The notes: a model not told the origin generated them from the letters alone. Shown: positions 12,739 through 41,900, counted from the stretch's first letter. The stretch is DNA of 64,000 bases from Porphyridium purpureum (GCA_008690995.1 VRMN01000020.1:62001-126000), one strand, 5' to 3'. Translations and numbers: made by a program.

Positions 12739-12801
<63 letters not shown>

Positions 12802-23783: not shown

Positions 23784-25259
23784 CTAAAGCTCTTCATCCC
23801 TCTCAAGCCAGCTTTCTCGAGAAAGTGGACCATGGGCAGCCCTTTCGGCATGAACTCCGGCCACTCCTTTGTCTTGCTCCGCATCGTCACGACGCAGTTC
23901 AAGCAAAAATTTCAAAAACATGGTCGAGCGCGAGTCGGTCAACTTCCAGCGAGCGGCGACACGTTTTGCGCATCTTCGAGCTTCTTGCGCGTCCAGCCGG
24001 CCTCTTGAGGCACACTCACCCAGCGTGCGCAGGTACGCGTGCAGGACCCGAAGCTGCTCGCGGAAGTCTGAGCCCAAGTATTTGGCCTCAGTCAGCACAT
24101 CGGATAGTGGGAGCAGCTCATGCGCTTGCGCGCGTCGAATGCAGTCAGGCATATACTGGTACATGCGTCGCTCGTGCAGCGTATAGCCCAGTGCCATGAT
24201 CCAGCGCATGTACTCTCGCGCCTCCTCGTAGTGTCCCGCATTGATAAACGCCGTACTTAGAACGTGAAGCACAGCGCTAGGTGGCTTGAGACCCAATTCG
24301 CGATACTTGTAGCCTATCCACCTTGCGTGGTCCGCCTTGTCGTCACCAGTTGCACAGATCCACGCTCCACACTCAAGGAGGCTGGCGTCCAGTGGCACCG
24401 CTAACGTATCCGGCCCGTTCCGGACAGTTTGCCAAACGGTCAGAGCTGCATCGGGTCGGCGATTCCGCAGCAAACCGTACGCAACGCTGCATATCAGATC
24501 CGCAGTGGGGGTAGGATAGACATGCAAGCGCTCACGGAATGTCCGTTGCATCAATTTGACCCGGCCACACACGCTCAAGTGAGTGATGAGCCCGCTGTAC
24601 GCCTTCTCATTCAGCGTATGATTCTGTGCTTCGACAAGGTTTTTCACTGCAATCACCACATTCACCTTGTAGAGCGCTTTGGCAAGTGGAAGCAGCTGCA
24701 GGAGCGCGAACGAATCCAGCCGCGCACCGTCATCTCGCGCTCGTGCGACCATACGAATCGCAAAGGCTAGCCGTTCGCGAGGCTCCGCGTGTAGCGCGTG
24801 TCTAGCATTGCGCAGAGCAAAGTCGAGCGTCCAATGGTCAAATACTGCCGACCGAGCTGCATCCACGATGCCTTTTACGCGCTGCAAAGTGGCCTCCTCA
24901 ACCAGCGCCAAGTTGAGCTGATCATTCAGCGCTCGAGTTTCTGGCTTTCTTTTCGCGCGCGCGCGAGGCGAAAATGGTGCGGCATCCGTTGGTGGCGAGT
25001 CGAACAATGCGCGAGGCGGATACAGGTCTGGTTGCTCTGAGAGCGAAGCCGCGCGAATGGCTCGCGGCTCCTGTAAATGAAATTGCCGCCGGCACATATT
25101 AGACAGCAGAGCCCTGCGCGGACTCACGTACCGGTCTTGCCAAGCTGACAATAGCGACGCTAACGATGAATGCTGGTGCGCATGGGCACCGCGATTCCAC
25201 AGCAGATGCTTCAGACCCAGTCGCATCGGCCAACGCGGCCACAGCGGGCTGCCAGCCAT
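23784..25259 (-). CDS. PPR-like helical-repeat protein, paralog 5 (C-terminally shorter)
   Basis: Shared motifs LAFAIRMVARAR, LAKALYKVNVVIAVKNLVE, YRELGLKP, AREYMRWIMALGYTLHE and LPLSDVL; it ends before the RLDLC/VSxAYM helices of the other four. Confidence 0.7.
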   Translation of the reverse strand: MAGSPLWPRWPMRLGLKHLLWNRGAHAHQHSSLASLLSAWQDRYVSPRRALLSNMCRRQFHLQEPRAIRAASLSEQPDLYPPRALFDSPPTDAAPFSPRARAKRKPETRALNDQLNLALVEEATLQRVKGIVDAARSAVFDHWTLDFALRNARHALHAEPRERLAFAIRMVARARDDGARLDSFALLQLLPLAKALYKVNVVIAVKNLVEAQNHTLNEKAYSGLITHLSVCGRVKLMQRTFRERLHVYPTPTADLICSVAYGLLRNRRPDAALTVWQTVRNGPDTLAVPLDASLLECGAWICATGDDKADHARWIGYKYRELGLKPPSAVLHVLSTAFINAGHYEEAREYMRWIMALGYTLHERRMYQYMPDCIRRAQAHELLPLSDVLTEAKYLGSDFREQLRVLHAYLRTLGECASRGRLDAQEARRCAKRVAARWKLTDSRSTMFLKFLLELRRDDAEQDKGVAGVHAERAAHGPLSRESWLERDEEL

Positions 25260-26208
25260 ACTGCGCGCGAACCTCCAAGCGCCGGATCTTTTCGCACTGA
25301 ATGCGGGCGAAACGTGCGTCGGCGCGCTGAATGCCGCAGCAATGGCGGCCTGTGCGGTCACCAGCGCCTTCCAATGCAGCCCGCCAAACGCACGCGTCCC
25401 CGCTCGTGCCTGCTTTTCACATTCGAGTCACTTGGACCGGTTAACGGTTTACTTTCTTGCAATCGAAGCGCGTCCGGTTTATGTCCCCACCAGCGGGAGT
25501 CCCTGCTGCGAAAAGAAGAGTTTGGCTCGGACTTGGGGCGGCTGTCGCTCTTCTCGTATCTATGTGGCTCTCCGACGGACAAGATGAAGCTTTACTGTTT
25601 CCTAATGAACTCGGAAATAAATTCTCCACCGAGTCGCGGTCTCTCGTCTGCTGGACCGGCGCGGAGCCGGCCGGTCTTCTATATCGTTCGATCTGGGGAT
25701 CTCGCTGCGGTACAGCTGTGCGTACCTGACCACAGCGACACTTCCGTAAGACCAACTTCACATGCTCTGGTTGAGCATCAGAGTCACAGAAAATTTGAAA
25801 AGAATGTCGCGCTGCTTCTCTCCACATCACGTACCGCCTGCGCGTTTAAAGTCCGTTATTGCAGGTTGAGCGCTTCTAGCAGAAGCTCCTACGACTCTTT
25901 TGCGCCTTCCACTACGATGAATGTTGCGGTACCCCCAAAAAGAACAAGGAAACAAACGCCCGGTAAGTAGTCCCACCCGTGCGCGAACGTGCCTGCGTGG
26001 AAAGAACAATGCGTTACTTTGGCCACGGAGGGGAAATGTTACCAATGCTGTGCCTTTATTCTCTCTCTTTCTTCTTCTTACCTCCGAGCAAGACCTGACC
26101 GGCTAGTCCGGGCAGGCGCGTCGCCTTTTTATACCCTTACTTCCGCTAGGGACAGCAAGGCGGCAAGAGAAATGACAATGCAAACCATTGGCATTTCTGC
26201 GCGCGTCT

Positions 26209-26242
26209 AGAAGGTTCTGGAACCTCTAGAAGCTTCTAGAAA
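26209..26242. promoter_or_regulatory. Two perfect three-unit heat-shock-element-like sites (nGAAnnTTCnnGAAn)
   Basis: aGAAggTTCtgGAAc at 26209-26223 and aGAAgcTTCtaGAAa at 26228-26242. Confidence 0.45.
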
Positions 26243-27094
26243 CGGTTAAACGGTCTGCCGGTTTAACGGCTTACCGGTTCCGGAGCAACCGAACCGTTCT
26301 AGGTGAATGGGGTCGAACGGATAACATGCAGGCCATGTGTGTTCATGCTCGGCCGCGCTCAACACTGAGACACCGGCGGTCTCGCCACCTCACTCACAGC
26401 CGTCGCTTTTCGGCCACGGGCTCAGCCGCCAACGACGGAGCGCCGTTATCTGCGCATGCACGCGCGCCGTGCGCATTCGCGACGCCAATGGCAGCAGCGC
26501 CCGCGCCGCAGAGTCCTTGCCCTTCCTACCCACCTCGGCACGGCACCATACCTGTTGTAATTCTTGTCTGCTTTTGACGAATAGGCGATCGCGATGGCCC
26601 GTTCGTCTCGTTCTTAACTCCGATTACGATGGAAGTTTGAGAACGATGAGTTTCAGCATAAAACTCTTTTATCTTAACAACTTATCTTTTGTCTTTTCTT
26701 CTGTGCTTCTTAATTCTGTCTCTTCTACTTTGCTCCACCCGCCACAGGCGTGCCGCATTTTATAGTCGCGTTCGCGGCAAATGGTCAGTGCATTGTGACT
26801 GTGCCGCGACCCATTTGCTCCTGTGCGGCGACCCCTCGGGTGCGTGTTTTGAAATCTGCACAGTAATCAACTTGCGTCCCTTCGCGAGCATCTCGAAGAG
26901 GAACCCTGCTCGAAGTTGTCACAATACCAAACTGGTTACACCCAACCACTCCGCTTTTCCTAGCAAAACGCTCGCGTTTTATATGAGTCGGCAAAAGTCG
27001 CTTCGTTCGGTTCAACGGTTCAGCGCCGAACACGGCCAGCTCACAAATCACTTGATAAATTACACAGAAAAATTCCTTCCCACATTACATAATT

Positions 27095-27166
27095 ACTGTA
27101 CCCAGTGTACTCGCTGTACTTGCTGCATGCACTGTACTCGCTGTACTCGCTGTACTCGCTGTACTT
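27095..27166. repeat. Short CTGTACTCG minisatellite
   Basis: Tandem (CGCTGTACT)-like units about 130 nt beyond the DUOXA stop codon. Confidence 0.8.
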
Positions 27167-27296
27167 CCGTGTCTTGAGGAATTGACTCGAGCAACAGAAT
27201 GCAAGAAGCAGAGGAAGATAGATGCGCGCGGATGTGGATGCTGGAGGAGCTGTTGCGAGGACTGGATTGTTTGGTCGCCGCCGGGCGCTTTGGGTT

Positions 27297-28790
27297 TTAA
27301 TTGAGCCATCCGCCTGGAGGAGGAGGAGGAGGCGGCGGCGATGGACGAGGCGACCGCGGCACAGACGAGGCGTGCATTGCTGCGCTGCCGCCCAACGCGT
27401 TCGCGTCAGCCGCTGAGTCCTTGGGTATGTCAGACCAGGATACTTCCGTTCCCGACCGTGTTTTAAAGGAAGTCGACTTGACTTGCCCGTGCTCGGCGGG
27501 ATGAGCCATCACACGGATGGGGTCGTAATCTTGCTGCGACGCCAGGCTGGGTGTCGTTGAGCTCGCATCGTCTGCATCTGGCAGTTCGACATAGTCGAGG
27601 TCCAACAGCCCAGTGCCTCGCTTCTGCAATCCATTGCGGGGCGTGGTGCGGCTCTTGGCCCATTCTGGCTCTGTTGCTTCGTGGCACACGCAGTGGCACA
27701 GGTCATCATCACACGTTCCGCACAAACAAGACACATCAATGTCTCTCAGCGTCAGGCGGCTCGCCGTGGTGAAAGCCTCGCGGCTTCGACCAAACAGAAT
27801 TTCGAGTACATCACCGAAATAGTCGCTAAACCAAACGGCCACTTTGCCAGTACGGCTGTCTTCCTTGCGCTCTTGCAGGCGCCGCACGAGCTGCACCGTG
27901 TGGTGCATGTACAGGAGCGTGGCGAACAAGAAAAGGACTCCAGCGGTGACGGCAGTCAAGATGAACGACCAGCTGTAGTTCACCACCAACAAGCCGTCGC
28001 GCCACGGAATCACCAGAGGGTTCTTGATTCGGCTCACCACTGAAACATAAATGATGACTGCGCTTGCCATCAACCCTGCCACGACCATCAGCAGCAACGC
28101 ACCGACGCGCGGCCGGAACGCGCCAAACAGCACGGACACAAAGTACACGCCGAGGCCCGTGTACAATAAGATATGGGTATAGTACCCGGCGTATCGATAA
28201 TAACGCAGCCAGCGGATTTGCTCGCCGTCGAGCAAGAAGTATTCAGCGATCTGCAGAAGGGGCAGCGGCATTCCGTTAAATTGCGCCTGCCGCCATCGGC
28301 GCGCAACGGTGTTGGCAAGCACTGAAAAGCCTCCACGGCCTTGGAACCAAACATCGCCGCGGCCCCAGAGAAACTGTTCGTTGTAGTTGATGCGCTGTCC
28401 GAACTGGTACTCTGGCTCGCCTAACATGGTCACATTAAAGCCGCGCAGCCCAATCTTGATACCGAGCGTCACGTCCACTTCGTGCGCGTCGTACGCGGCG
28501 TAGGGCGTCCGCGTGTGCACCTCGCCGTATTGCCAGTTGTACGAGAAATTGCTGAGCAGCAGCGTGAACATGACGTACACGCCAAACAGCAGCATGAATG
28601 TCTTGCGCGCAGCGTCGGCTTTGGATTCAAACGAAAAGATGGTGAACAGGCCTGCCACCGCAATGGTCGCGCTCGCGACGCTCACGCTGATGATCCACAA
28701 ATCCAGGCCCACGGCGGTCTTGTTGGGTCCATAGTACGTAGGCCCAATGCCATTCCCAGGCAGCGTCTGCGGCACGCACGTGTCCGCCAT
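27297..28790 (-). CDS. DUOXA: Dual oxidase maturation factor (DUOXA/NIP family) with long C-terminal cytoplasmic extension
   Basis: NFSYNWQYGEVHTRTPYAAY, LGIKIGLRGFNVTMLGEP, INYNEQFLW, GMPLPLLQIAEYF and YRYAGYYTHILL align with the DUOXA signature (IGL.+GL.G+N+TL.G.P....E.INYNE.F.W; GLP.P+L.+AE.F; YR.AG.Y); about 5 hydrophobic segments. Confidence 0.93.
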   Translation of the reverse strand: MADTCVPQTLPGNGIGPTYYGPNKTAVGLDLWIISVSVASATIAVAGLFTIFSFESKADAARKTFMLLFGVYVMFTLLLSNFSYNWQYGEVHTRTPYAAYDAHEVDVTLGIKIGLRGFNVTMLGEPEYQFGQRINYNEQFLWGRGDVWFQGRGGFSVLANTVARRWRQAQFNGMPLPLLQIAEYFLLDGEQIRWLRYYRYAGYYTHILLYTGLGVYFVSVLFGAFRPRVGALLLMVVAGLMASAVIIYVSVVSRIKNPLVIPWRDGLLVVNYSWSFILTAVTAGVLFLFATLLYMHHTVQLVRRLQERKEDSRTGKVAVWFSDYFGDVLEILFGRSREAFTTASRLTLRDIDVSCLCGTCDDDLCHCVCHEATEPEWAKSRTTPRNGLQKRGTGLLDLDYVELPDADDASSTTPSLASQQDYDPIRVMAHPAEHGQVKSTSFKTRSGTEVSWSDIPKDSAADANALGGSAAMHASSVPRSPRPSPPPPPPPPGGWLN

Positions 28791-30448
28791 CTTGTGTTCA
28801 CCGCCGGCGCGCAGCAGCTCTGCACGCCGATGGCCACGACCTTGGCTTGCCTAACTTTGCACGACACAAGCGCAGATGTGAGAGGCGAGTACAAGCGTGA
28901 GGCGCGTATAAGTCTAGCTCGGCGGCACCGAATGCACGTCAAGGCGCATCGTCGGTCAGTTTGCAGGGACAGAGTTTTCTTTCCCCCGAGAAATGGTTTT
29001 TCGCCGCTCCTCCAAACGCAATTCGGTGTCACGGCACATCCGCGCACCAGCCCACCACCGACCCATTTAGCCGTTGTGACAATCCCTTGCGCGGGTTGCC
29101 GCTGCCGCGTTTTCCTATGCACGCGCCTCCAACCGCGACGTGGGCAACATTCCGTTAATTCTCCATACGCGCGCTCGCGCCGTGTGCGCAAGCGACCCCT
29201 CACTTGCGCAGATCGAGGGCGTGTGTGCGACGCGCGCCAATGCCGATGACCCCGCAGCGGCTCGCCCACTGCCTGCTTTGTGCGCACGCTGGGTCATCAT
29301 CGTCGCCGCAGAACAAGCGGCTGTAGCCGCCGAATTCACAATTCTGCGCGTTGACGCGACGATTTTCGCCACGTGGAGTAATTCTCCGAATCTGTGCGCG
29401 GCGACGAAGCAGAAGAGAATATCTGCCGCAGAGTCGCACGTGCGGCTCGCGCCATTCCGTTACGAGCTTGACAACTCGCGCACGCAGAAGTGGCCGACGT
29501 GGCCACGCTGACTCAGCCACTTGGCGCGAGCAACGGGGGGGCATGGATGCATTGGAAGCAGAGTTGGCCATAGTGAGTTGCTTTGCGAAAGTCGACGTGT
29601 GCTGCCTAGGCAAGAAAGGGTCGTGCGGGCTAGGATACACGTGTGCGAAACGGAAGGAAGCGTGCGTTGCACGTGCTCGTTTGCTGTGTTGCGTCGTGTA
29701 AATCCACGAAATGAGAACGGCTTTTGATGCGACGAAAATCAAATCGATCCACTAGCAGATTGTCGCGGGCGAGCAGGAATTTTTTTTTTCCTCCCTTTCC
29801 TCTTTCTTTTCTTTCCCCGATGCGCGTCGCTCTGGTTCGTTAATTCTCTGTCGGATTCTGTCGGCGATTTGTGCGCAACGGGACCACGCCGCGCGCAAGG
29901 CCGTTTGGCGGGGTTCTGGTTAGAGGCGCATCTTGTCAAAATATCGTTTGTGATGTTGGCAGTATGTCCTGAGGGGACGGCATCTGTGTCGCACTATTTT
30001 GTGCCCGCCACATGAATTGCATGTGAAGCTTGCAAGTGACAGGGCTGACCCAGCCCGTAATTTGCGTGACATGCGAGTCACGATCGACGATGCAAAGTCG
30101 GCCCTCCTCATTTCCGGGACCTCGTTTTCCTTTTTCTTTTTCTTTAGAATGCTTGCAAAATCGCACGGCAGACGGGCATCAGCCTTGCATATAATGGGCG
30201 AATAGCGAGTGCTGTCAACTCGACGAGGACTTGTGCGTCGTCTCCTGTGCCACAGAGCGGCTTCTCGGAAGATCCAAAGCTCAAACACTTTCAAGAGGGT
30301 GGCCATTTCGAGGACAGGACCGAGGCGATCCAGGTCGCAAGGTAAGAGCTGCCTTTCCCTCTCGTGCATTCTTCGCAAGCCGCATTCGCAGCGCGAGAGG
30401 GGGCGCACGCTTGTCAAGCAGGAAGGCTGACACTTTCGCGCCCCTCTC
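28791..30448. promoter_or_regulatory. Divergent DUOXA-DUOX intergenic region (putative bidirectional promoter)
   Basis: 1658 nt between the two outward-facing ATGs, with no convincing CDS; contains pyrimidine-rich tracts at about 29779-29818 and 30123-30145. Confidence 0.5.
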
Positions 30449-33400
30449 ATGGAAGCGTTTTATCGCATCTCGCTGCCTCGCGCGCCCAGCACGCGCAATG
30501 GACAGCTCGTCGATATCGACCCTGAGGGCGTGTATCGCGACGAGTTGTTTGAGGAGGCTCAGCGCATGAATGATGCGGAACAGGGCGTGCTTCGATCGGT
30601 GCTGGCCCAGCAGCGCATCAAAAAGCGCTTCTCAGCGGGCGCCATCTTTGGTCTTTCGTTGATGCTGCTTGTCTCGATGCTTCTTCCGATGCTTCTGGTG
30701 CATAGCTCCATGTCTCGGGTGCGAGCGCGAGTTAGCTCGCTGCCAGTCTTCACCAAAGCAAACACTTCGCGCCGCTTTACAGGTGTGCTACGTCAAGAGG
30801 CAGCGGTAGACATCGAGTGGACACCGTGGGACGGCGCGTTTAATAACATTGCCCACCCTGAATATGGCGTTGTGGAGGGCCGAATCACACGCCCATGCTT
30901 GCCACGTTATGCGGACGGAGCGTATGCGCCCTCCAATCCTGAAGGTCCCAACCCGCGCACCGTGTCAGAGCTCGTCATGGGCGGCGACACTGGGTACGGC
31001 TCGCTCACCAATAAGACCGCCTTTCTTGTCTTTTTTGGGCAGCAGGTCGTCGAGGAAATTCTCGATGGGCAGGCCTTCCAACCGGCCGAGCCGTATGTCA
31101 ACATTCCCGTGCCTCAATGCGATCCGCTGTACGATCCAGACTGCAAGGGCGACTTGTTCATTCCTTTACCGCGCAATCGATACGACCTCAGCACAGGCAA
31201 TGCACCTGGCGTTCCGCGCGCTCAGCTCAACGAAATCAGCGCGTGGATCGATGGCACGCTTTTCTACGGCCCTTTCAAGGCGTGGGCAGACACGCTACGT
31301 GCGTACGACGAGGAGCGACCAGGACGATTTGCGTGTCTGGTTGACGAAGAAAGTGGCGTGGAAAACTGCAACCTTCCTGCACTCAACACAATTGGATTGC
31401 CAATTGTGAACCCTCCTCCTCCAACCCTTCGTGACGTGAGGCCGGCCGAACGCTTTTTCCGCCTGGGCAACCCGCGCACCAACGAAAATCCCATGCTGCT
31501 GGCGTTTGCGGTGATGTGGTTCAGGTACCACAATGTCGTGGCCGATCGCATTCATGCCAAGCATCCAGACTATGACGATGAGGAAGTGTTTCTGTTTGCG
31601 CGACAGTGGCTGATCGCAATCTACCAAAAGATTGTGTTCTATGACTGGTTACCGAGCTTCTTGGGCATCCCGCGCGAAGAGTTTGACGAAAAGTATGCAT
31701 ACAAGGGCTATCGCACGGTCGACCCGGCCATTTCGCAAGAATTTCAGGTCGCGGCCATGCGCTTTGGACACACGCTCGTGACGCCAGGTGCATATCGTCG
31801 CGAGCCATACTCATGTACCCCGAGCTCCTTCGAAGCGCTTCGCACCTGCAACTCTTACTTTCGCGGCGAGGAAGTGCTGCTCGAAGACGACGGCCCCACG
31901 AAGATGCTGCTGGGTCTGGCTTCACAGCTGGCCGAGCGTGAAGACGCGACAATCACGCCGGACTTGCGCGGCTTTGTTTTTGGCGTCTCACTGGACGCGA
32001 CACGACGCGATCTCATGGCAATTAACATCCAGCGGGCGCGCGAGCACGGCGTCGGGACGTACAACCAGGTGCGCAAGTGCTTCAGGCTTCCGGAAGTGTC
32101 ATCGTTTGACGAGATTTCGTCACTCACGGACAACCCGGCGTTCAATAACTGCACTGACGCACAGGGCAACACGGGCGTCAATTGCATGCAGATTGCCATC
32201 GAGGGCTTGAAGCTGGCGTACGACAACGATATTTCCAAGTGTGACTTGTGGCCCTGCGGGCTGCTGGAGGTGAATGTGACCGGACCAGGCCCTCTGTTTC
32301 AAGCCATCCTGATTGACCAGTTTTTGCGCATCCGCGACGGCGATCGGTTCTGGTTTGAGAATGACAATGGGCCCATCGCAAATATTCTGTCCGCGGAGCA
32401 GATCGATGAGATATGGAACACGACCATTCGAGATGTCATGGTGGACGCTCTGGAGCTTAGCGACGATGTTATTTTGCAGAGCAATCCGTTCAAATATGAC
32501 CCATCTGTCTGCGCACAGCCCGTGCAGCTGAGCGAGTTCAATCTTGAAAATTGCTCCGCACCTTCAACGTACAACTGGTACCGAGGACACATTCCTCAGC
32601 GTGAGCCCTCGGTGACGACCACGACCTCGCAACGAAGCGTGTGTGAAGCAGACTCGTTGGCAAAAATCCTTTTCGGGTCCAAGGATGGACACGAGCACGA
32701 TGATCGTCTACAGCAAGAGCTTTCCACGGAGGAGCAGGCAGCGGCAGCAGGTTGCCCGGTGTACAAGGCACGCACAAAGCTCGCGCGTATAATGATCATG
32801 CAGCAGGTGATGATGGAGCGTGTGAAGAAGGGCATCTCCCAGCGCTACGTTAGCTACCTGGGCTCCAACGACTGTGGTATCACAAATGGTGACTCGCTCG
32901 TGCAACTCGCGTGGACCATCGCTGGTATTGTGATGTGGCTCACCGCGAATGTGATAGTGATGTATTTCCTCGTCCGCTGGATCAAGCAGCGAAAGGGACT
33001 TCGGCAGTTCGGCCGCAAAGCTCCGAAAAATGGACCCTTCATTCCGCCCGATTTCAAGCCGACGCGAAGCGGCACCGGTGTCCACATGTACAAGCACAAC
33101 TCAAAGACCACGGGATACGGATGTCTCATCTATCACTCTTTTCGGCACGAGTCGTCTGATGTGAAGGGTGCTACCGTGAAATTGTGCGAGCCAGAGCAAG
33201 CGCATTTCTTCTTAGTAGGAGTGGGAGATTCCGTCCAAGATGGAGACGCCAGAGGCATTGCACGCGAGGGAGACGGCCATGAGTCGCGTATTGATAGAAG
33301 CCGCGCTACCGATTCAGCCCGGCCGATGGAAGTGCGAGAGGTTCTAAGTGGTGATATTACCATGATTTCACCTTCGAACGTATCCGAAGTGCGTATCTTT

Positions 33401-36400
33401 GACAAATACCTGATGGTGGTGTGCAAAATTGGGTCGGCGCGGCTCTTCGAGTTTGATTCACCGACCAAAGCGAGACTTGTGCTTCGAGAGCTGCAGGAGA
33501 GTCTGAGTAGGACGATCGGGAACGGCATCGAGGTGAACGCGGCGAGCGTGAACGAGCTTGCCGAGGGTTGTACGTCGAGGGCCGAACGCATGGAGGAGAT
33601 CGAGCAGTTTTTTGAGGAGGTCAAACTCGACTTCAAGAAAAAGTACAGTGCGTCTGCCACACATACGTCCTTCGCAGCAGCTGCCACTGCACTTTCCAAA
33701 TGGGACATGACAGGCGACACCCTTTTGGGAGACGATATGAAACTGGTCCATGAGACCGTGCAAAAGGTCACTGCCTATAATTTATCAGGAGTCGCATGGA
33801 CCATCCACCAAAACGAGACTGATGAAGCGGGAGCAGAACTGGGCAACGGTATTGCGGCCAAGCAGTCAGCTACAAGGACGACGACGCAAGCAAGCGCATC
33901 GCATCGTAACACCAGCAAGCGTCCGCTGGGCAGAAGTCTCTCCAAACTTGCTCTTCGCAAGACAAAAGGTAGTCTTGCTGCAGGTTCAACGCAAACCTCT
34001 CACGGTTTGTGGCGGGGGGCAGGAGTGAGACCGGAGGACGTTGAGGATACGGTGCTCTTCACGAAGCACGAGGTTGCTGCGGTTTTGCACATTCACCCTT
34101 CTTCCTTTATTCTCTCACGCATGTTTTATGAAGGCATGGGTAAGCGTAGCTCCGTGATTACCGCGCGTCAGTTTCGTCGAGCCGTAGAAAATTTGCTGAA
34201 AGCCGGCGAGTCGCCGGGCCTTTTCCTCGCTGGTCTTGCGGTCGGTGAAGGGCAGAGTATTGACAAGAGACTGCTGCTAGATATTGTGTACGAGTTGAAA
34301 GGTGGCACTGGGATGGATGACGTTGATCTTGACCGTGGCGACGCGCAAGTGATGGCAAAGTACATGAATGCAACCAGCTCGGCGACGCTCTCTGTGGAAG
34401 AATTTGGGAACATGATCGTTGAAATGCAGGAGAAGACGATGAAGCAGCGCAATGTTGGATGGCAGCAGTATTTGAGGCAGATCAAACAAGACGCAGAAGA
34501 AAGTGCTAACGAGCGGACGGCTCCGACGGGAAGGAAGTTTGAGAAATTGCGCTCATGGCAGCACTCGTTTGTCGACTACTGTAAGGCACACCGTTTCGAG
34601 ATTTTCTGGGGCGTCGCATACGGCCTCACAATTGCGCTGATCTTTTTGTACACGTGGTGGTACTACTACTCTCTTCGTGAGGTATACGGCTTGCGCGGTA
34701 TTTTGACGGTGGGGCTGTGCGTGACGCGCGCTTCTGCCAGTGTCGACATGTTCGTGTACTCGATCACTTTGCTTCCGATGTGCCGTAATCTGATCACCTT
34801 CTTGAGGAGCACAAAACTGCACCGATACGTGCCGTTTGATCGTGCGTATGAGTTTCACGTCGTCACGGCAGTCACGGGTGAATTCTTCACGGCGTTGCAT
34901 GTTGTCGGCCACTGCGTAAATTTCTATAACATCACGACGCAGCGCAGTGGCGACCTCACGGGCTACTTTCGCGCGGTGAACTGGAACTCGGACTTTGTGC
35001 CTTCCTTTGCGTTCTGGGTGTTTGAAACAATCACTGGCATGACGGGCTTTTTGTTGACATTCGTCATCATCACTTTGATGGTGTTTGCCATTCGGCAGGT
35101 GCGCGCCGCCAGCTTCCAACTGTTTTGGGTGATGCACCACGTGTGCTTCATGCTGCTGTACACGATGATTGTTCTGCATGGCTCCTTTGTGCTCGTGCAG
35201 CGGCCAATCTTCCACTACTTTTTACTTGGCCCACTGCTCTTGTTCATTCTCGACAAGCTGTATTCATTCGCGCGTGAGTCTGAGCGACTGCAAATTATTG
35301 AGATGCGCTTGCTTCCGAAGGGCGTCACTGCATTGTATGTTCGCGTATCGCCCAGCTTTTCTTACAGCTCGGGCCAATGGGCGCGCTTGAAGATTCCGGC
35401 ACTGGGCACGTCGGAGCTCCATCCTATCACGATTTCGTCAGCGCCACATGATCCGTACGTGTCGTTCCACATCCTGGCGTGTGGGCCTTGGACGCAAGCG
35501 CTGCGCGACCTGGCGTTCGAAATGCAGGGCAAACCAGTGTCGTCATTACCCACGATCCGCATCGATGGCCCGTACGGCGAGGGCCACCAAGACTGGATGC
35601 TTTATGAAACGGTGCTGCTGGTGGGATCAGGGATCGGTTGTACACCTTTTGTGTCGGTTCTGAAGGATATCTTGCATCAAGTGCGCAGCAAGACGTTCCG
35701 CACGACAAAAGTGGTCGCGGTCTTTATTTCCAGAGGCATTCGAGATCTGGCATGGATCACCAATGAACTGAGTCAGCTCGAACCGTATGCGCCGCCCGGT
35801 TTCCTCGAACTCCTGTTTTTCGACACGGAACAAAAGGTGGACAAGAAAACAAGCACGCTCGATGCGCGCCATTTGGCTTTTGACCAGGCAATTCTGCGCC
35901 ATGTGGAGTACGTTTCGCAGATCTTGGCGGGCCGTTCGTCTCTCATTCGCGTCAGGGGATTCGTGTTGCAAGGCCGCCCGAATTTTGACACGCTTTTGAA
36001 AGATGTGCAAGCCGATTGTATGGCGCACGGCGCTTTGAGCGCTGAAACTTATTCCGAACTCCAGGTCGGCGTGTTTGCTTGTGCGTCGGCCCCGGTCACG
36101 CTCAGTCTTAAGAAAGCGTGCATCAAACGTGACCGCGACACTATGAGAGAGATTGCATCCAGACAAGCGGAACTGGGGAAGAAAGAATTTGAGTCTCGCG
36201 AAGTCTCTTCAGCGGATCAAGACGCATCGCAAGATGGACGTGGCTTGAACGGAGAGGCGGCGCAGGGGGGGAACCGCACGCCGGAAAGAGACACATCTAG
36301 CTCAAGTAGGCTGACGGCCACCTTGCGCGAAGAAAACGTGCTGTCAGAGTCGCTGCGCGAGTCGAAAATGCCATCGGTTGACATGAATAAGATCAAGAAC

Positions 36401-36640
36401 TTTGCTACGTCGTTCAAGCCGAGCGCAAGGCAACGCGCGCGAGTCGAGCGGCCGGTGTTTTTCACATTTTATGGACAAGTGTTCAGCTCGGACACGTCGT
36501 TTGACTTTTGGTCGAAATGGAAGACAAAGTTGGGCAAGCGGAAGCAGCAGCAAGCAGTGCAAGAGGCATTCGAGGCGTTGCCCAAGGTCGCCGCGCATGC
36601 GATGGGTGGTGATGATGCCGTCGGCGCGTCGCAGGTGTAA
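30449..36640 (+). CDS. DUOX: Dual oxidase (peroxidase-like ectodomain + TM + degenerate EF-hand region + gp91phox-like NADPH oxidase), 2063 aa
   Basis: Peroxidase domain: WDGAFNNIAHP, YADGAY, PNPR, FFGQ, WIDGTLFYG, RLGNPRTNENP, AAMRFGHTL, RRDLMAINIQRAREHG, DQFLRIRDGDRFWFEN. Ferric-reductase His pairs: EFH...LHVVGH and FWVMHH...LHGS. FAD site HPITISSAPH. NADPH sites IDGPYGEG, GSGIGCTPF and GRPNF. Confidence 0.95.
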   Translation: MEAFYRISLPRAPSTRNGQLVDIDPEGVYRDELFEEAQRMNDAEQGVLRSVLAQQRIKKRFSAGAIFGLSLMLLVSMLLPMLLVHSSMSRVRARVSSLPVFTKANTSRRFTGVLRQEAAVDIEWTPWDGAFNNIAHPEYGVVEGRITRPCLPRYADGAYAPSNPEGPNPRTVSELVMGGDTGYGSLTNKTAFLVFFGQQVVEEILDGQAFQPAEPYVNIPVPQCDPLYDPDCKGDLFIPLPRNRYDLSTGNAPGVPRAQLNEISAWIDGTLFYGPFKAWADTLRAYDEERPGRFACLVDEESGVENCNLPALNTIGLPIVNPPPPTLRDVRPAERFFRLGNPRTNENPMLLAFAVMWFRYHNVVADRIHAKHPDYDDEEVFLFARQWLIAIYQKIVFYDWLPSFLGIPREEFDEKYAYKGYRTVDPAISQEFQVAAMRFGHTLVTPGAYRREPYSCTPSSFEALRTCNSYFRGEEVLLEDDGPTKMLLGLASQLAEREDATITPDLRGFVFGVSLDATRRDLMAINIQRAREHGVGTYNQVRKCFRLPEVSSFDEISSLTDNPAFNNCTDAQGNTGVNCMQIAIEGLKLAYDNDISKCDLWPCGLLEVNVTGPGPLFQAILIDQFLRIRDGDRFWFENDNGPIANILSAEQIDEIWNTTIRDVMVDALELSDDVILQSNPFKYDPSVCAQPVQLSEFNLENCSAPSTYNWYRGHIPQREPSVTTTTSQRSVCEADSLAKILFGSKDGHEHDDRLQQELSTEEQAAAAGCPVYKARTKLARIMIMQQVMMERVKKGISQRYVSYLGSNDCGITNGDSLVQLAWTIAGIVMWLTANVIVMYFLVRWIKQRKGLRQFGRKAPKNGPFIPPDFKPTRSGTGVHMYKHNSKTTGYGCLIYHSFRHESSDVKGATVKLCEPEQAHFFLVGVGDSVQDGDARGIAREGDGHESRIDRSRATDSARPMEVREVLSGDITMISPSNVSEVRIFDKYLMVVCKIGSARLFEFDSPTKARLVLRELQESLSRTIGNGIEVNAASVNELAEGCTSRAERMEEIEQFFEEVKLDFKKKYSASATHTSFAAAATALSKWDMTGDTLLGDDMKLVHETVQKVTAYNLSGVAWTIHQNETDEAGAELGNGIAAKQSATRTTTQASASHRNTSKRPLGRSLSKLALRKTKGSLAAGSTQTSHGLWRGAGVRPEDVEDTVLFTKHEVAAVLHIHPSSFILSRMFYEGMGKRSSVITARQFRRAVENLLKAGESPGLFLAGLAVGEGQSIDKRLLLDIVYELKGGTGMDDVDLDRGDAQVMAKYMNATSSATLSVEEFGNMIVEMQEKTMKQRNVGWQQYLRQIKQDAEESANERTAPTGRKFEKLRSWQHSFVDYCKAHRFEIFWGVAYGLTIALIFLYTWWYYYSLREVYGLRGILTVGLCVTRASASVDMFVYSITLLPMCRNLITFLRSTKLHRYVPFDRAYEFHVVTAVTGEFFTALHVVGHCVNFYNITTQRSGDLTGYFRAVNWNSDFVPSFAFWVFETITGMTGFLLTFVIITLMVFAIRQVRAASFQLFWVMHHVCFMLLYTMIVLHGSFVLVQRPIFHYFLLGPLLLFILDKLYSFARESERLQIIEMRLLPKGVTALYVRVSPSFSYSSGQWARLKIPALGTSELHPITISSAPHDPYVSFHILACGPWTQALRDLAFEMQGKPVSSLPTIRIDGPYGEGHQDWMLYETVLLVGSGIGCTPFVSVLKDILHQVRSKTFRTTKVVAVFISRGIRDLAWITNELSQLEPYAPPGFLELLFFDTEQKVDKKTSTLDARHLAFDQAILRHVEYVSQILAGRSSLIRVRGFVLQGRPNFDTLLKDVQADCMAHGALSAETYSELQVGVFACASAPVTLSLKKACIKRDRDTMREIASRQAELGKKEFESREVSSADQDASQDGRGLNGEAAQGGNRTPERDTSSSSRLTATLREENVLSESLRESKMPSVDMNKIKNFATSFKPSARQRARVERPVFFTFYGQVFSSDTSFDFWSKWKTKLGKRKQQQAVQEAFEALPKVAAHAMGGDDAVGASQV

Positions 36641-37289: not shown

Positions 37290-37844
37290 CTAGAACGCAA
37301 AAGTACCTTGGAGCAAGCGGTGGGGAATGATAAGCGCATTGGCATCGAGCCAGGTGTCCAGCAGTGAGAGACCGAAAAGCTTTCGCGAAAAGCGCTCGAT
37401 GATCAGAAGCGCGTGGCCGAGACCCGGAGCGACCCATCGAGTGTAGCATGATGCTTTGACGCCATCCACGACGATGTCACCGTGCATAGTGTGCGGATTA
37501 TATAAACCCTTTGCGCGAACGCTTCGCCGCACTGAAAGGACACTGCCATTTTCACCGATTCCCGTGATCATGATGTCGCCAGGTTGAATGGTCCCAGCAA
37601 CAACCAGGTTACCGTTCGCGTAGACAAGATGCCCACTTGTGACAGTCAACATGTCATGCTCAAGCTGGATTTGGACGAAATCATCATGGACACTTTCCGC
37701 ATCATGGTGGCCCCAGAATACCACTGGGCTAAATGCATCAGACGACACGCGCACTATATCACCTACTTTCAGTGTATCCATTCGCTTCAACGAGCCATCC
37801 TCCATCCCGACCAGTCCGCTAGCTGGGAAGCAAGTCCCAGAGAC

Positions 37845-37895
<51 letters not shown>

Positions 37896-38900
37896 TTGAA
37901 TTTGCATACCGGGCTGATAGCCATCGGTGCAATTTTCAAAGCTGGGCCTCTGCATCACACAGCCAAGCCAACTCGTCATGGCCGAGAGGCGCGTATACAC
38001 GGCAGCTGGGTATTCAGGGTCTGCACAGCCCGTTCCAAAGGAGACAATTCCGATTTGAAGACGGCCTACGGAGCTCTCTCCCGTGTCGTCGCCGAGAATG
38101 AGTGGACCACCGCTATCGCCCTGGCAAGTATCTGCAGGAGGCTCGGGCTCGTATCCAGCACAGAGCATGCTCGTTGCTTTGAACGAGGAGCCGTACAGGC
38201 TACGGCACAGACTATCCGGCTCTACGAATATATCTTCTTCCAGAAGAATGTTTGAACCGTCGCCGCCAAAAAAGAGGTCCCCGAAGCCAATGATGGTCGA
38301 CCTCTCGCCCTCGAGGTCCACGCCGTTTGACGATGTATCCAAACCAAAAATCCGCGCGTATGTAGAAATTGTCACGTCTTCGCTCAACTCAATCAGAGCG
38401 GCGTCCCATTCAAAGGAGAATTCATCCCACTTGGGGTGTCTGTACACGTTGACGGCACGCGCGTTAAGGCCTGTGGTGGATTTGACTGAGTCATACAATC
38501 CAACAACCGCGGACGGTACAAAAATGTCCTCCAGAAAGCAGTGCGCAGCAGTCAAGATCCAGCGCGAGCCGACGATCGTGCCGCCGCAGCTGTACTGTTC
38601 ATTGAGGTCGGCATACGAGATCAACACTTGCGCAAACCACGGATACTCCCCTTGATCCGCGGGCTTTCCATTCACAATACGCTGCAGGCCGTGCGCGACT
38701 TTCAACCGCCGCGTACTGGGCTCTGACGCGCGGTCGCTCCATCTCGGCTCCTTCACTGCCGGGGTACCGGCGCGCTTCCCTTCTACCCGCTGAAGCATCG
38801 TCGCGCCACCTCGAGACGCACAGTCAAGTCCAACAAGCATCAAAACCACTATGCTTAAAGCATACGCGCCGCCCATTCCACGTCTCGTACTTCGACCCAT
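37290..38900 (-). CDS. Secreted trypsin-like (S1) serine protease fused to a hedgehog-type Hint (Hog) autoprocessing domain
   Basis: Signal-like AYALSIVVLMLVGL; activation site R-IVNG; triad motifs LTAAHC, WDAAL and DTCQGDSGGP; acidic/Gly linker; Hint motifs CFPASG..V, L.VGD.V, LTVTSGHLVY and GLYNPHT.HG.IVVDGV.ASCY. Start at 38900 or 38876. Confidence 0.92.
37846..37896 (-). repeat. (GAT)n + (GGT)n microsatellite encoding the poly-Asp/poly-Gly linker
   Basis: tca and cca runs on the + strand between the protease and Hint domains. Confidence 0.9.
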
Positions 38901-41900
38901 CGTTCGCTGAGTACTAAGCATCTGCCCTGAGGAACAAGGCAAGCACGCATGACAAATCTTGTCACGCAGCACACTGACAGTCGCTTCTCTTCCTCCTGCT
39001 GGTCTGACTCGAACGCTTCGTTCCTTCTGCGTATCACACTGTTCCACCATCACCAGGCCCGGTATCCCCCGATACGTATACCCAACAACCGGCGCCAAAG
39101 CCACCACGCCGCTCACAAAAAACACCGGCGTGACGCTGCAAAAAATCACAATTCAGAGCACCCGCGCAACATCCCCTGCGAAAGAGAAATTCAAGCACCG
39201 ATGCGAGAGACATGAGCTCACTCAGGCCGAAAGCAAAAAGAATTCATTTATGCGTGACTCAAGTTGCGAGCCAACGGCGCCGACTCGCAGCCTTCAGTGG
39301 TACAGACCAGGGATTGACTACTCACGAACTCCATGCGCTAGAACATTGCGCGAGACGAGCTGTGCACCGTGTCTCGTAAAGTATGAAAAAATCGCGCCGC
39401 TGCTGCTTCACGTAAAGATGCATGTGGCCGAACAGATATGCACAAGACGATGAAGGCTGGACGCTGTTGAGCGTCCGAAGCTGTGGCCGCGCGTGGCGAG
39501 CAAATCAGATGATACCTGGTTGAGAGAGTATCGCTTTATGCGAAATGAATACTAACCGTCAGATGATTTAGCGCGATGTCGAAAAATTATCGGTCCCAGT
39601 CGAAAGTCGCAGAACTTTTTCTGACCCGATTGATTCCACTGCGATCGAAAAAGATCGTTAAGCGTGACTCATAGGCGGGCGCCGCTGTCCAGGAGTGTGC
39701 AAAGTTCAACGCAGCTTTCGTCAACCTTTCAGCCCACGTGCAGAGCCGGGAACCGCGTGCGTCAAAGCTTCTCATGTGCCCAGGCCCCATCAACGCCTGC
39801 ATTGCCGCGAATTCAGTACCGTTGGCGGCATGCTCGCTTCTGTTCGCCTGGAGAAGCAGTGCTCAGCCTCAGGGGCGCCCACATCAGTGCTAGCCACAGT
39901 TTATACTTCAAAGTCGCTTTCCGCCAGCCGAGGAAAAGGTACTCGTCGCAAATAAGCCCGGTCTCTCACCAGCACGTGCATGATGGAACAGAGGGTCTCG
40001 GGTAAGGGACATGTAGATCGCGAAGACAGACGCATTTGCAGCGTGCCATTTGACCATCTTGCTGTTCTAGCTCTTGTGGAAATCTCGCATGTGCCCGAGA
40101 AGATTGGGCTTTCACTGGTCACGCTCTGGGCGAGAGAGGCAGGTCTCGGGTTCACCGCACGCCCGCGCGCGCATCTCCCTGCGCTCTTGCCGCGGAAAGA
40201 AAGGGCGCGATTCAGTGTACTATGCGCGTCCTGGTGGCGGTATTGTTCGGTCTGAGCTCGCTTCGGGACGAGGTTCTTCTGGGGTTGAACGCGACGCCAT
40301 GGCGTCTTGCTGGTCCGACCGGCACGAAACGGCCCAAGGTATTGCTCCGAGCCAACTGGAAATAGTTCTCACCCAGGATCGGGTGTGCAGGAGCAAGTGG
40401 GTTTGGATCCCGAGCAGGCGCCTGCGCTTCCGATGTCCGTTCCGCCCGGTGTCGAGGAGCAGCTGGCGCGCAGGGGGGCTTGGGTAGGAGGCGCTTGCAC
40501 ATGTGCGCGGACCGCACGGCACGCGAAGAATGGAACCCACGATCAGAAGGCTGTACGATTCAAATGCGCTTATGGGCTAAGTGTATGCCCGCGCGCATAC
40601 GTGTCCTTGTGGTAGTCTGGGAAAGGAGGAAACCTATGTGTGGCAGATTCCCAAGCTTGTGGAACCGTAGGTACTTGCATCAGCGGCTGAACTGCTCACT
40701 ACGCAGAGTATCGGTGAGAAAGTTTCTCGCGAGTGCGACAGCAAACCGTATCAGCTGGCTTTCACGGCTGAAGCGCGCTCCTCACCTGCGTTCATGTTAT
40801 ATTATGTCCCGGTCGGGCATAATCCGGACATGTTTGAAACTTTTCTTCTTGAGACGTGCGATTGTGGCAATATGTTCGTGGTCGATAAAGGCGCCGTGAC
40901 ACACCTGGCGTGAAAAACGCCGTTTTCGTCGCGCGACTCCATCGCAACTCATCCGGAGCGGTGGGCGCGGGATGCGGGCAAAATGCCTTATCTGTTCAGA
41001 AACGAGGCAGAGCTCAAAGGGATGGATGCTGGGCGTTGGAAGATTGAGAAGGCGCCGCGTTATTTGTTGCTCACCGAACGTAAGCTGTCCTAGCATCCAC
41101 TAGCTCGGAAAATCGTGACGGCGGGTTCCAACGCAAACTTGGCGTATGTCATCCAGATTGTGCTCGGGTATGCTCTCACGCACCTGGAGGAATGTGAGTT
41201 GAGGTCTGATCAGACAGTAGCCATCGTGTACCATTCAGTTTCAACCCAAGTTTGAGTGGCATGAAAGCTCGCCGATGCAGGACGGCGCCGGAAGGGTCCC
41301 ACGCATGGTGATGTGGAAATGGGCTGCAAAGCGCGCGACCCCTTCAGAGGCGGTCATTCTTGATTTTTTTGGGCATTGCGTGGGATGCTGTGCCACTGGC
41401 GAAGCTCTTGCACACTGCTTTGTTCCGATGCAATGCATTGACCAAAGCCATGCAACGTTTCTCTTCATGGGTCGTGGGTGCGGAATACATGTATTGAGTG
41501 TAAAGGTGTGTCGATGATGCAGCTCGTCAACGCGATCATCGTCATCGATGCGCAGCGATCTCCATGTATCCATGGATTCATGTGAATCGGCGCACATGCG
41601 CAATCCAACCGTGGAGCACTTTGTGTGGTTGTTCACGTTTGCTCACTTGCTGTTATGTTTGCCACTGTCCGACGAACAATGCATCTACCGTGGACAGAGA
41701 AGGGATTTTACTTCCCTGAGTAGGATTGACTCCAAATCAAAAGCGTGGCCTTGCGATGCTGAAGTCTCGTGAAATCGTTCACCGTGCGCAACGCGCGTAG
41801 ATGGAATATGTTTTCTACTTGGAAGTATAAAACCGATTCATAGTTCAATCATCTTTCATCAAGCTTTGGAGAAATAATCGTTGTCCAGCTGAGCATGACT

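What the first reader, a model, noticed from the sequence alone, without database searches (positions are those of the whole stretch)
27297..36640. Head-to-head DUOXA/DUOX pair in an apparently non-animal, intron-poor eukaryote
Seen: a full dual oxidase and its dedicated maturation factor are divergently oriented 1658 nt apart, each a single uninterrupted ORF. Established: DUOX/DUOXA are characterised as an animal system for extracellular H2O2 production, and in vertebrates each DUOX sits head-to-head with its DUOXA on a shared promoter. Inference: the neighbouring SUMT, PPR-like array and DUF285 genes point to an alga/protist. The pair could then be an ancient conserved two-gene unit, a co-transferred cassette, or a convergent arrangement, implying a DUOX-based oxidative defence or matrix cross-linking system outside animals.
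Basis: partly seen in the sequence, partly recalled or inferred. Interest (0 to 1): 0.9.

Follow-up and report, generated by a model that had tools for sequence, protein, structure and literature searches.

The report
Red alga's calcium-blind DUOX/DUOXA pair
A single-celled red alga carries the hydrogen-peroxide enzyme DUOX, best known from animals, head-to-head with its helper gene DUOXA; the pair likely came in together from a single-celled relative of animals, and the enzyme has lost most of its calcium-binding residues, so it is predicted to work without the usual calcium switch.

Summary
Confirmed. Two intron-free ORFs lie head-to-head, 1,658 nt apart: DUOXA (497 aa) and DUOX (2,063 aa). 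The host is a Porphyridium-like red alga. The P. purpureum orthologues (72% and 66% identical) have consecutive accessions on one scaffold, as do DUOX and DUOXA of the fungus Gonapodya, so the linkage likely predates animals. DUOXA also occurs in the red alga Compsopogon, a choanoflagellate, Syssomonas and Lithocolla.

DUOX trees join Porphyridium to choanoflagellates (100/99) and reject the species-tree split (AU p=0.008 and 0.0005). A rooted test (p=0.16) and DUOXA (p=0.43) do not resolve the origin.

Both Porphyridium DUOXs keep the four haem histidines and the oxygen site. They lack canonical EF-hand calcium loops (present in 113 of 118 other DUOXs) and both cysteines of a disulfide that is invariant in 117 of 117. 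The peroxidase domain has no distal histidine.

Best reading: a two-gene unit transferred from a unicellular opisthokont and rewired into a calcium-independent extracellular ROS source. NCBI names the P. purpureum genes automatically; ten paper searches found no report of them. New variant of a known kind.

The parts
27297..28790 (-). DUOXA, 497 aa: N-terminal peptide, five hydrophobic helices, claudin-like loop with the conserved sequon N119 (human N109), low-complexity tail
   Evidence: Pfam PF10204 E 1.7e-51; human DUOXA1 alignment; N119 invariant in alignments; hydropathy
28791..30448 (.). 1658-nt divergent intergenic region, likely mostly two long unspliced 5' leaders
   Evidence: Coordinates; no Pfam hit for 3 short ORFs; contigs of RNA or guessed-RNA runs extend far into it from both sides, with no joints
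29127..29806 (.). Inferred site of a shared bidirectional promoter (narrowest window 29326-29360); weak hint only
   Evidence: Contigs on the DUOXA side end at 29302/29127/29325 and on the DUOX side start at 29806/29628/29361 in X15/X16/X19, while DNA run X3 runs through; contigs cannot show starts or strand, and X15 has low cover inside the gap
30449..36640 (+). DUOX orthologue, 2063 aa, single ORF
   Evidence: 66% identical over 2056 columns to P. purpureum KAA8493733.1
30644..30700 (+). Hydrophobic segment aa 66-84 after a 65-residue N-terminal stretch; predicted signal anchor, shared with P. purpureum
   Evidence: Hydropathy; colinear N-termini
30827..32464 (+). Peroxidase-homology domain aa 127-672: proximal His441, Arg343 and Glu346 kept; Glu202 at the distal His position; staple Cys (human C118) lost
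32918..32974 (+). Extra transmembrane helix (M0), aa 824-842
   Evidence: Hydropathy
33323..33547 (+). Predicted PH-like domain, about aa 959-1033
   Evidence: Model; best fold match human DUOX1 7d3f, Z 9.6, rmsd 5.0, 167 aligned, followed by PH folds; no significant sequence score
34058..34441 (+). Degenerate EF-hand module aa 1204-1331: loop 1 has M/K/S/Q at ligand positions 1/3/5/12; loop 2 has N/T/S/E with Ala for the Gly (Pro for the Gly and Arg at position 12 in P. purpureum)
   Evidence: Profile score 16.4 bits against a maximum of 2.9 in 200 shuffles; canonical loop pattern in 113 of 118 other DUOXs and in 0 of 2 Porphyridium proteins
34562..35278 (+). NOX transmembrane domain: haem His1470, 1484, 1563, 1577; oxygen site Arg1427/His1488; loop C staple Cys (human C1165) replaced by Gly1505
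   Evidence: fold match
35288..36481 (+). FAD/NADPH dehydrogenase domain with deviations (HPIT for HPFT, GSGIG, CA for CG), an insertion of about 100 aa before the last strand, then a C-terminal extension
   Evidence: model; cyanobacterial NOX5 DH domain Z 26.7, rmsd 2.0, 245 aligned
36182..36240 (+). 59-nt stretch that is possibly a collapsed direct repeat; the true insertion may be at least 340 nt longer
   Evidence: Loose end at 36240 in 4 of 4 runs; separate contigs start at 36182/36185 in 3 of 4; P. purpureum has a longer insert here

Best explanation
This is a head-to-head DUOX and DUOXA gene pair in a Porphyridium-like red alga, likely acquired as one linked unit from a single-celled relative of animals and predicted to act as a surface source of hydrogen peroxide that no longer answers to calcium through its EF-hands. 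Shown: gene identity and orientation; adjacency by accession in P. purpureum and Gonapodya; intact haem and oxygen-site residues; loss of EF ligands and of both staple cysteines. Inferred: both genes are transcribed from a short shared promoter. DUOXA escorts DUOX out of the ER and stays bound at the plasma membrane, as in the human complex. Electrons pass from cytosolic NADPH through FAD and two haems to outside oxygen. With the calcium switch gone, output is set by expression, NADPH supply or another input, as in the EF-less red algal NoxD/Rboh enzymes. The peroxidase domain, which lacks the distal His, serves as a scaffold or at most a weak peroxidase. The most likely use is an oxidant zone in the polysaccharide capsule against microbes, fed to separate peroxidases. 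The transfer likely happened before Porphyridiophyceae and Compsopogonophyceae split. Odds by step: identity 0.99; red algal host 0.95; ancestral linkage 0.85; transfer from an opisthokont 0.7; active oxidase 0.8; EF-independent 0.85; defence role 0.4.
For: Nearest relatives are P. purpureum KAA8493732.1/KAA8493733.1, consecutive on scf236_6. Gonapodya KXS19340.1/KXS19341.1 are consecutive, both on a contig of 808,289 bp. 7 of 46 metagenome DUOXA loci have DUOX upstream on the opposite strand, about 5 of them distinct. The best non-Porphyridium DUOXA hit among 1.84 billion representatives is Compsopogon. The only non-opisthokonts among named relatives are red algae. No DUOXA was found in prokaryote genomes or viral contigs. 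Porphyridium + unnamed P0061 + choanoflagellates form a 100/99 clade in three DUOX trees. The split (animals + choanoflagellates | fungi + red algae) is rejected at p 0.008 and p 0.0005. Both red proteins share 17 rare residues with the two named choanoflagellates and 6 with the two fungi. The four haem His, Arg1427 and His1488 are kept. EF ligands are lost, and these residues are required for calcium activation in human DUOX1 (PMC7794343). GC3 of 0.65 and 0.71 sits in or just above the range of 13 neighbours, 0.55-0.67.
Against: With bacterial outgroups, a tree with the red algae outside all named opisthokonts is not rejected (p 0.163). DUOXA does not reject the species-tree split (p 0.43), and its red algal clade has only 93/42 support. 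The NOX half alone leaves Porphyridium unresolved on a very long branch, so long-branch attraction is possible. No Compsopogon DUOX is among the 120 of 285 hits listed (only proteins of 1134-3611 aa searched). Only 20 of the 150 listed DUOXA representatives (386 hits) were looked up and 8 carried a species name, so other non-opisthokont holders may be hidden. Gene orientation in P. purpureum and Gonapodya was not seen. 7 metagenome loci with at least 1.4 kb upstream show no DUOX. Near-invariant catalytic-side residues are changed: HPFT Phe (Ile1660; Met in P. purpureum), the FAD-contact Arg (Val1471), the CG Gly (Ala1879, window only) and both staple cysteines. In human DUOX1 the calcium-free state is the low-activity one, so losing the ligands could lower activity. 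EF loop 2 of the window keeps N, S and E and might bind weakly. No activity was measured.
Confidence: 0.55

Rival explanations
1. [quoted passage not shown]
For: The rooted AU test does not reject red algae outside opisthokonts (p 0.163). DUOXA is uninformative (p 0.43). The NOX branch is very long. Many deep DUOXA lineages are unnamed.
Against: The species-tree split is rejected in two unrooted tests, one on the peroxidase domain alone with no long end branches flagged. It needs many losses: surveys place DUOX almost only in animals (PMC7730656; PMC4029949).
Confidence: 0.15
2. Same origin, changed job: the protein is no longer a peroxide generator but a weak or differently wired transmembrane electron carrier, for example for reducing extracellular iron or dumping surplus NADPH.
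For: The NOX half evolves much faster than the peroxidase half (about 2.7 against 1.0 changes per column on the stem). HPFT, FAD-contact Arg, EF ligands and staple disulfide are all changed.
Against: The oxygen-site Arg1427 and His1488 are kept; the matching His is among the positions that PMC3591440 uses to tell ROS-making NOX from ferric reductases. DUOXA is retained with its N-terminal peptide and sequon, which in humans favour H2O2 output. The peroxidase domain is 87% identical between the two Porphyridium proteins.
Confidence: 0.15
3. Reverse transfer: red algae had the gene and choanoflagellates took their DUOX from an alga they ate, replacing their own.
For: The tree joins the two groups without a firm root. 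Monosiga holds 405 genes of likely algal or prokaryotic origin (PMC4046809 abstract).
Against: Choanoflagellate DUOX keeps EF loops and both staple cysteines. The system is spread over animals, choanoflagellates, Syssomonas, Lithocolla and early fungi but was seen in only two red algal classes. It still needs a separate origin for the red algal copy.
Confidence: 0.07
4. The two genes arrived or persisted separately and came together again in Porphyridium by convergent selection for co-regulation.
For: Gonapodya has a second DUOXA on another scaffold. 7 metagenome loci lack an upstream DUOX. The two gene trees do not show the same donor with support.
Against: Adjacency in vertebrates (PMC2871058), Gonapodya and P. 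purpureum and about 5 distinct environmental loci is simpler as one ancestral state.
Confidence: 0.06
5. Contamination or a chimeric contig carrying animal DNA.
For: Most named relatives are animals.
Against: Orthologues lie on a 975-kb P. purpureum scaffold. The DNA is held in 9 studies. DNA contigs span the pair. Animal clades exclude these proteins in the DUOXA and concatenated DUOX trees (95/94; 98/95). Codon GC matches the neighbours.
Confidence: 0.02

Closest known systems
Human/mouse DUOX1-DUOXA1 complex (PDB 7d3e, 7d3f, 6wxr; PMC7794343)
   Same: Domain order (peroxidase homology, M0, PH-like, EF module, six-helix NOX domain, dehydrogenase), four haem His, oxygen site, a partner with N-terminal peptide and N109-type sequon, head-to-head genes.
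   Different: Red algal host; no introns; EF calcium ligands lost; C118-C1165 disulfide lost on both sides; proximal His kept (lost in human); predicted signal anchor; insertions after the peroxidase domain, in the cytosolic loop and in the dehydrogenase domain; C-terminal extension.
Salpingoeca rosetta and S. infusionum DUOX (EGD74734.1; noted in fPoxDB, PMC4029949)
   Same: Closest named clade in DUOX trees (100/99); same peroxidase-site residues; several shared rare residues such as Thr344.
   Different: They keep one or two canonical EF loops and both staple cysteines; linkage to DUOXA was not testable here.
Gonapodya prolifera DUOX/DUOXA (KXS19340.1/KXS19341.1) and Chytridiales DUOX (KAJ3411720.1)
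   Same: Non-animal DUOX; in Gonapodya adjacent to DUOXA by accession and contig length.
   Different: Canonical EF loops and staple cysteines kept; separate branch; orientation not seen.
Red algal NoxD/Rboh (Chondrus, Pyropia; PMC1940245, PMC9322803)
   Same: NADPH oxidases of red algae without working EF-hand motifs.
   Different: NoxD has no peroxidase domain or DUOXA partner and has four extra membrane helices in the dehydrogenase region; this protein is a DUOX by descent with a decayed EF module.
C. elegans BLI-3 with MLT-7 and sea urchin Udx1 with ovoperoxidase (PMC6411640)
   Same: Model for function: a DUOX with a doubtful peroxidase domain feeds H2O2 to a separate peroxidase for defence or matrix cross-linking.
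   Different: No partner peroxidase was identified here (no genome held); animal DUOXs are described as calcium-activated.

Membership tests
DUOX (canonical, calcium-activated) | N-terminal peroxidase-homology domain followed by an extra membrane helix | tested here: met
   PF03098 E 2e-116; DUOX1 E 2e-102; helix aa 824-842
DUOX (canonical, calcium-activated) | Six-helix NOX domain with four haem histidines and the Arg/His oxygen site | tested here: met
   His1470, 1484, 1563, 1577; Arg1427, His1488
DUOX (canonical, calcium-activated) | FAD- and NADPH-binding dehydrogenase domain | tested here: met
   PF08022 and PF08030 above cut-off; fold Z 26.7, rmsd 2.0, 245 aligned; motif deviations HPIT, GSGIG, CA
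DUOX (canonical, calcium-activated) | Two EF-hands with calcium ligands | tested here: not met
   Module is homologous (16.4 bits, shuffle maximum 2.9) but has no canonical loop; 0 of 2 Porphyridium proteins against 113 of 118 others; no Pfam EF hit. Filed therefore as a DUOX orthologue and variant, not a canonical calcium-activated DUOX.
DUOX (canonical, calcium-activated) | Disulfide stapling the peroxidase domain to loop C (human C118-C1165) | tested here: not met
   Both Cys present in 117 of 117 other DUOXs, both absent in both Porphyridium proteins
DUOX (canonical, calcium-activated) | PH-like domain in the cytosolic loop | tested here: met
   By predicted fold only: 7d3f Z 9.6, rmsd 5.0, 167 aligned; the model was built from an alignment of DUOXs; the sequence profile score is not above shuffles
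DUOX (canonical, calcium-activated) | NADPH-dependent H2O2 production that needs DUOXA | not testable with these tools
   Needs an assay
DUOXA (PF10204) | Profile match above the curated cut-off over the full model | tested here: met
   175 bits against 23.3, profile positions 1-266 of 279
DUOXA (PF10204) | Five membrane helices, aromatic N-terminal peptide, conserved N-glycan sequon | tested here: met
   Five hydrophobic peaks; alignment to human DUOXA1 from residue 17; N119 invariant in 46 sequences
Active haem peroxidase (peroxidase-cyclooxygenase superfamily) | Distal histidine | tested here: not met
   Glu202 or Glu203 at that place in either register; Glu in 110 of 117 other DUOXs
Active haem peroxidase (peroxidase-cyclooxygenase superfamily) | Proximal histidine and distal arginine | tested here: met
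   His441, Arg343
Red algal NoxD/Rboh | Four extra membrane helices inside the NADPH-binding region and no peroxidase domain | tested here: not met
   No hydrophobic peak after aa 1583 at the threshold used; peroxidase domain present
DUOX/DUOXA bidirectional gene pair | Adjacent, divergent genes | tested here: met
DUOX/DUOXA bidirectional gene pair | Shared short promoter and co-expression | tested here: inconclusive
   Contig ends of three RNA or guessed-RNA runs fall between 29127 and 29806, but contigs show neither starts, strand nor level

The most novel reading that the evidence does not exclude
The DUOX-DUOXA 'operon equivalent' is an ancestral opisthokont unit, older than the animal-fungus split, whose tight head-to-head linkage let a two-subunit membrane enzyme cross from a choanoflagellate-like cell into a red alga in one eukaryote-to-eukaryote transfer. 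There it became a natural calcium-independent, constitutively or metabolically driven DUOX that no longer needs the staple disulfide.
Probability: 0.4. Interest if true: 0.85.

Novelty: new variant of a known kind. Interest (0 to 1): 0.72.

Why it matters
Surveys treat DUOX as an animal enzyme with one choanoflagellate exception (PMC7730656, PMC4029949), and the gene pairing is documented for vertebrates (PMC2871058). A linked pair in red algae and in an early fungus would push the pairing back to the opisthokont ancestor and give a clear case of gene linkage enabling transfer of a whole complex between eukaryotic supergroups. A DUOX that has shed both its calcium ligands and an otherwise invariant disulfide is a natural test of how EF-hands gate electron flow and what DUOXA needs for assembly, questions raised by the human structures and by thyroid disease mutations. 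It also names a candidate source of extracellular H2O2 in a cultured, capsule-forming microalga.

Tried and rejected
No whole genome is held, so copy number, partner peroxidases and other NOX genes of the host could not be checked.

Complex prediction of the peroxidase domain with DUOXA returned no verdict (score 0.11, mark 0.34, alignments not used, controls not folded); it says nothing either way.

DUOXA scans of viral contigs (113 pattern matches, none confirmed) and prokaryote genomes (142, none) found nothing. DUOX scans found only stand-alone peroxidases of 29-36% identity in prokaryotes and three of 23-31% in viral contigs, so no viral or bacterial vector was seen. A scan for a prokaryotic NOX outgroup found none, so the NOX half could not be rooted.

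The cytosolic loop has no sequence match in the PDB, and Foldseek gave no hit at E 0.001 for its model. The first DUOXA tree, joining red algae with Gonapodya (quick, 92), did not survive the careful tree and was dropped. The first word-based DUOXA search returned only 3 proteins and the profile version 14; neither is a census.

Rows left out of trees: 36 of 120 DUOXs were used, 26, 20 and 19 (both insect long branches removed there); 46 DUOXAs. The two-domain oyster protein P0006 was left out of the residue count.

The protein atlas did not complete. No Rfam match in the window. The sequence that follows 36240 in the laid contigs is not elsewhere in the window; the collapsed-repeat question stays open. 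Absence of contig cover in RNA runs (for example X15 beyond 36240) was not used as evidence. No earlier scan findings exist. Grasberger and Refetoff 2006 is not held.
Full report
Observation. The window holds a 497-aa ORF at 27297-28790 (-) and a 2063-aa ORF at 30449-36640 (+), with 1658 nt between the starts. The first matches Pfam DuoxA (E 1.7e-51). The second matches An_peroxidase, Ferric_reduct, FAD_binding_8 and NAD_binding_6, with no EF-hand family. Their best PDB matches are DUOXA1 and DUOX1. Three short ORFs in the gap match nothing. Among roughly ten thousand genes (a recalled figure for Porphyridium), divergent adjacency of two partner genes by chance is of the order of 1 in 10,000.

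Host. The closest relatives are Porphyridium purpureum DUOXA (72%) and DUOX (87% in the peroxidase domain; 66% over 2056 columns). The host is therefore a different Porphyridium-like red alga; that is inferred from these two genes, as no genome is held. The DNA is held by 20 runs in 9 studies, 2 runs being its possible source. In 4 runs laid there are no joints, and DNA contigs span the pair. GC3 is 0.71 and 0.65 against 0.55-0.67 for 13 neighbours. Contamination is unlikely.

Transcription. Contigs from one RNA library and two guessed-RNA runs cover both genes, which fits expression but does not show it. On the DUOXA side they end at 29302, 29127 and 29325; on the DUOX side they begin at 29806, 29628 and 29361; a DNA contig runs through. 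This is a weak hint that the gap is mostly two long leaders around a short shared promoter. Such leaders would hold 7 and 13 upstream ATGs, so the real starts may differ. All four runs also leave the window sequence after 36240, which suggests a collapsed 59-nt repeat and a longer C-terminal insert; this was not resolved.

Linkage elsewhere. P. purpureum DUOXA and DUOX are KAA8493732.1 and KAA8493733.1, both on scf236_6. Gonapodya prolifera DUOX and DUOXA are KXS19340.1 and KXS19341.1, both on a contig of 808,289 bp; a second DUOXA lies elsewhere. Orientation was not visible in either. Of 46 metagenome loci with DUOXA, 7 have DUOX upstream on the opposite strand, 265-1275 nt between first hits. 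Two pairs look like duplicates and three rest on short N-terminal matches. 7 loci have at least 1.4 kb upstream and no DUOX hit, and 32 lack enough upstream DNA or the DUOXA start. The four tested score higher against unnamed P0089 and animal proteins than against choanoflagellate, fungal or window DUOX; their lineage is unknown.

Distribution. A full HMMER search gave 386 DUOXA relatives, 150 listed. Of 20 looked up, 8 had species names: Compsopogon caeruleus (the best hit), Gonapodya twice, Syssomonas, Salpingoeca infusionum, Lithocolla, Sycon and Nymphon. Two unnamed MMETSP proteins group with Compsopogon at 100/100. Among the 120 of 285 DUOX hits listed, named non-animals are P. purpureum, two Salpingoeca, a Chytridiales fungus and Gonapodya; no Compsopogon DUOX is listed. 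Porphyridiophyceae and Compsopogonophyceae form a clade in PMC6811547.

Origin. In the peroxidase-domain tree with 9 bacterial outgroups, Porphyridium, unnamed P0061 and choanoflagellates form a 100/99 clade. The same split appears with both halves joined and without insects or outgroup. The species-tree split is rejected at p 0.008 and p 0.0005. Against this, red algae outside all named opisthokonts is not rejected when rooted (p 0.163), the NOX half is unresolved on a long branch, and DUOXA gives 93/42 for red algal monophyly, 80/74 for a loose group that includes the choanoflagellate, and p 0.43 for the species-tree split. Transfer from a unicellular holozoan is the best reading, at about 0.7. 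Vertical loss, hidden paralogy and reverse transfer remain open.

Anatomy. Kept: haem His1470, 1484, 1563 and 1577, oxygen-site Arg1427 and His1488, loop B Arg1453, and NADPH-side Arg1762 and Arg1843. The predicted dehydrogenase fold is complete, closed by a strand after an insertion of about 100 aa. The cytosolic loop model best matches human DUOX1 residues 644-884 (Z 9.6, rmsd 5.0, 167 aligned), though it was built from a DUOX alignment. The EF module is recognisable (16.4 bits, best of 200 shuffles 2.9) but lacks a canonical loop in both Porphyridium proteins, whereas 113 of 118 other DUOXs have one. Both cysteines of the human C118-C1165 staple are invariant in 117 of 117 others and absent in both Porphyridium proteins. 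The HPFT Phe and the FAD-contact Arg are changed. The peroxidase domain has Glu at the distal His position and keeps the proximal His, like most invertebrate, choanoflagellate and fungal DUOXs here. DUOXA keeps five helices, the aromatic N-terminal peptide and the N109-type sequon.

Mechanism (inferred). By analogy with the human complex (PMC7794343), DUOXA brings DUOX to the surface, and electrons move from NADPH through FAD and two haems to outside oxygen, giving H2O2. In the human enzyme calcium-loaded EF-hands dock the dehydrogenase domain. Here that switch is likely gone, so the enzyme is either held on by other contacts (the insertions are candidates), controlled by expression and NADPH, or weak. 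Red algal NoxD/Rboh enzymes also lack EF motifs (PMC9322803; PMC1940245), so the loss fits the host. In animals DUOX usually feeds a separate peroxidase (PMC6411640). An oxidant zone in the Porphyridium polysaccharide capsule (capsule recalled) against microbes is my preferred role, at about 0.4. Matrix cross-linking, iron uptake and reductant disposal are alternatives.

Literature. Ten searches listed no paper on DUOX or DUOXA in red algae; Porphyridium with DUOX gave 0 papers. The library lacks most subscription papers. fPoxDB reports DUOX only in Metazoa and one choanoflagellate, and none in fungi. NCBI and UniRef already carry automatic names for the P. purpureum genes. Seen: parts 1-4 of 6 of PMC7794343; keyword passages of PMC9421330, PMC9524095, PMC2871058, PMC7730656, PMC6411640, PMC9322803, PMC1940245, PMC3591440, PMC6811547, PMC5372347 and PMC4029949; the abstract of PMC4046809; nothing of Grasberger and Refetoff 2006 beyond its citation. 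No supplements were read; gene tables there (for example P. purpureum gene-transfer lists or the Rboh set of PMC9322803) could already include these genes.

Verdict. Real and apparently unreported. DUOXA is a member of its family. The oxidase is a DUOX by descent but fails two family features, so it is filed as a new variant. Interest 0.72.

Noticed in passing
window 26030-26330: Strongly self-complementary element (DNA fold -60.3 kcal/mol, z -5.4) with summed contig depth above 200,000 in DNA run X3 against 12-28 for the genes; likely a high-copy repeat or MITE-like element.
   Followed up: partly
window 11049-25259 (-): Tandem array of five long genes (891, 713, 759, 806, 491 aa) that share motifs by eye; helical-repeat-like, with no Pfam family hit and one sub-threshold PPR hit.
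   Followed up: partly
window 37290-39050 (-): Trypsin domain fused to a Hedgehog-type Hint module, convergent with DUOX.
   Followed up: no
window 42117-44924 (-) and 46032-47270 (+): A second divergent pair: an AIG1-GTPase/alpha-kinase fusion and an AIG1 GTPase, possibly defence related.
   Followed up: no
window 52347-55319 (-), 58712-60292 (+), 50199-51758 (+), 7807-8730 (+): Protein kinase with Sel1 repeats, DUF285 repeat protein, NAD kinase and uroporphyrinogen-III methyltransferase; the NAD kinase lies 13 kb from an NADPH oxidase, probably by chance.
   Followed up: no
P0123/P0167 (Gonapodya), P0062 (Chytridiales): Early-diverging fungi encode full DUOX with EF-hands, and Gonapodya has an adjacent DUOXA; fPoxDB counted 0 fungal DUOX in 2014.
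   Followed up: partly
L001:446-8800, L011:2500-10900, L007, L014: Intron-poor head-to-head DUOX/DUOXA pairs with gaps of 265-624 nt in unidentified eukaryotes close to unnamed P0089.
   Followed up: partly
P0061 (Logan, 1481 aa): Unnamed DUOX that is the tentative sister of the Porphyridium proteins (96/69, 90/88) yet keeps EF-hands and both staple cysteines; it could be near the donor or be another red alga.
   Followed up: partly
L127:1597-3096, L128:6001-7518, L129:6001-7569: Stand-alone animal-type haem peroxidase genes in three viral contigs, two of them over 350 kb.
   Followed up: no
window 5595-5769 and 27095-27170: Short tandem repeats with similar 9-13-nt units, one just downstream of DUOXA.
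   Followed up: no
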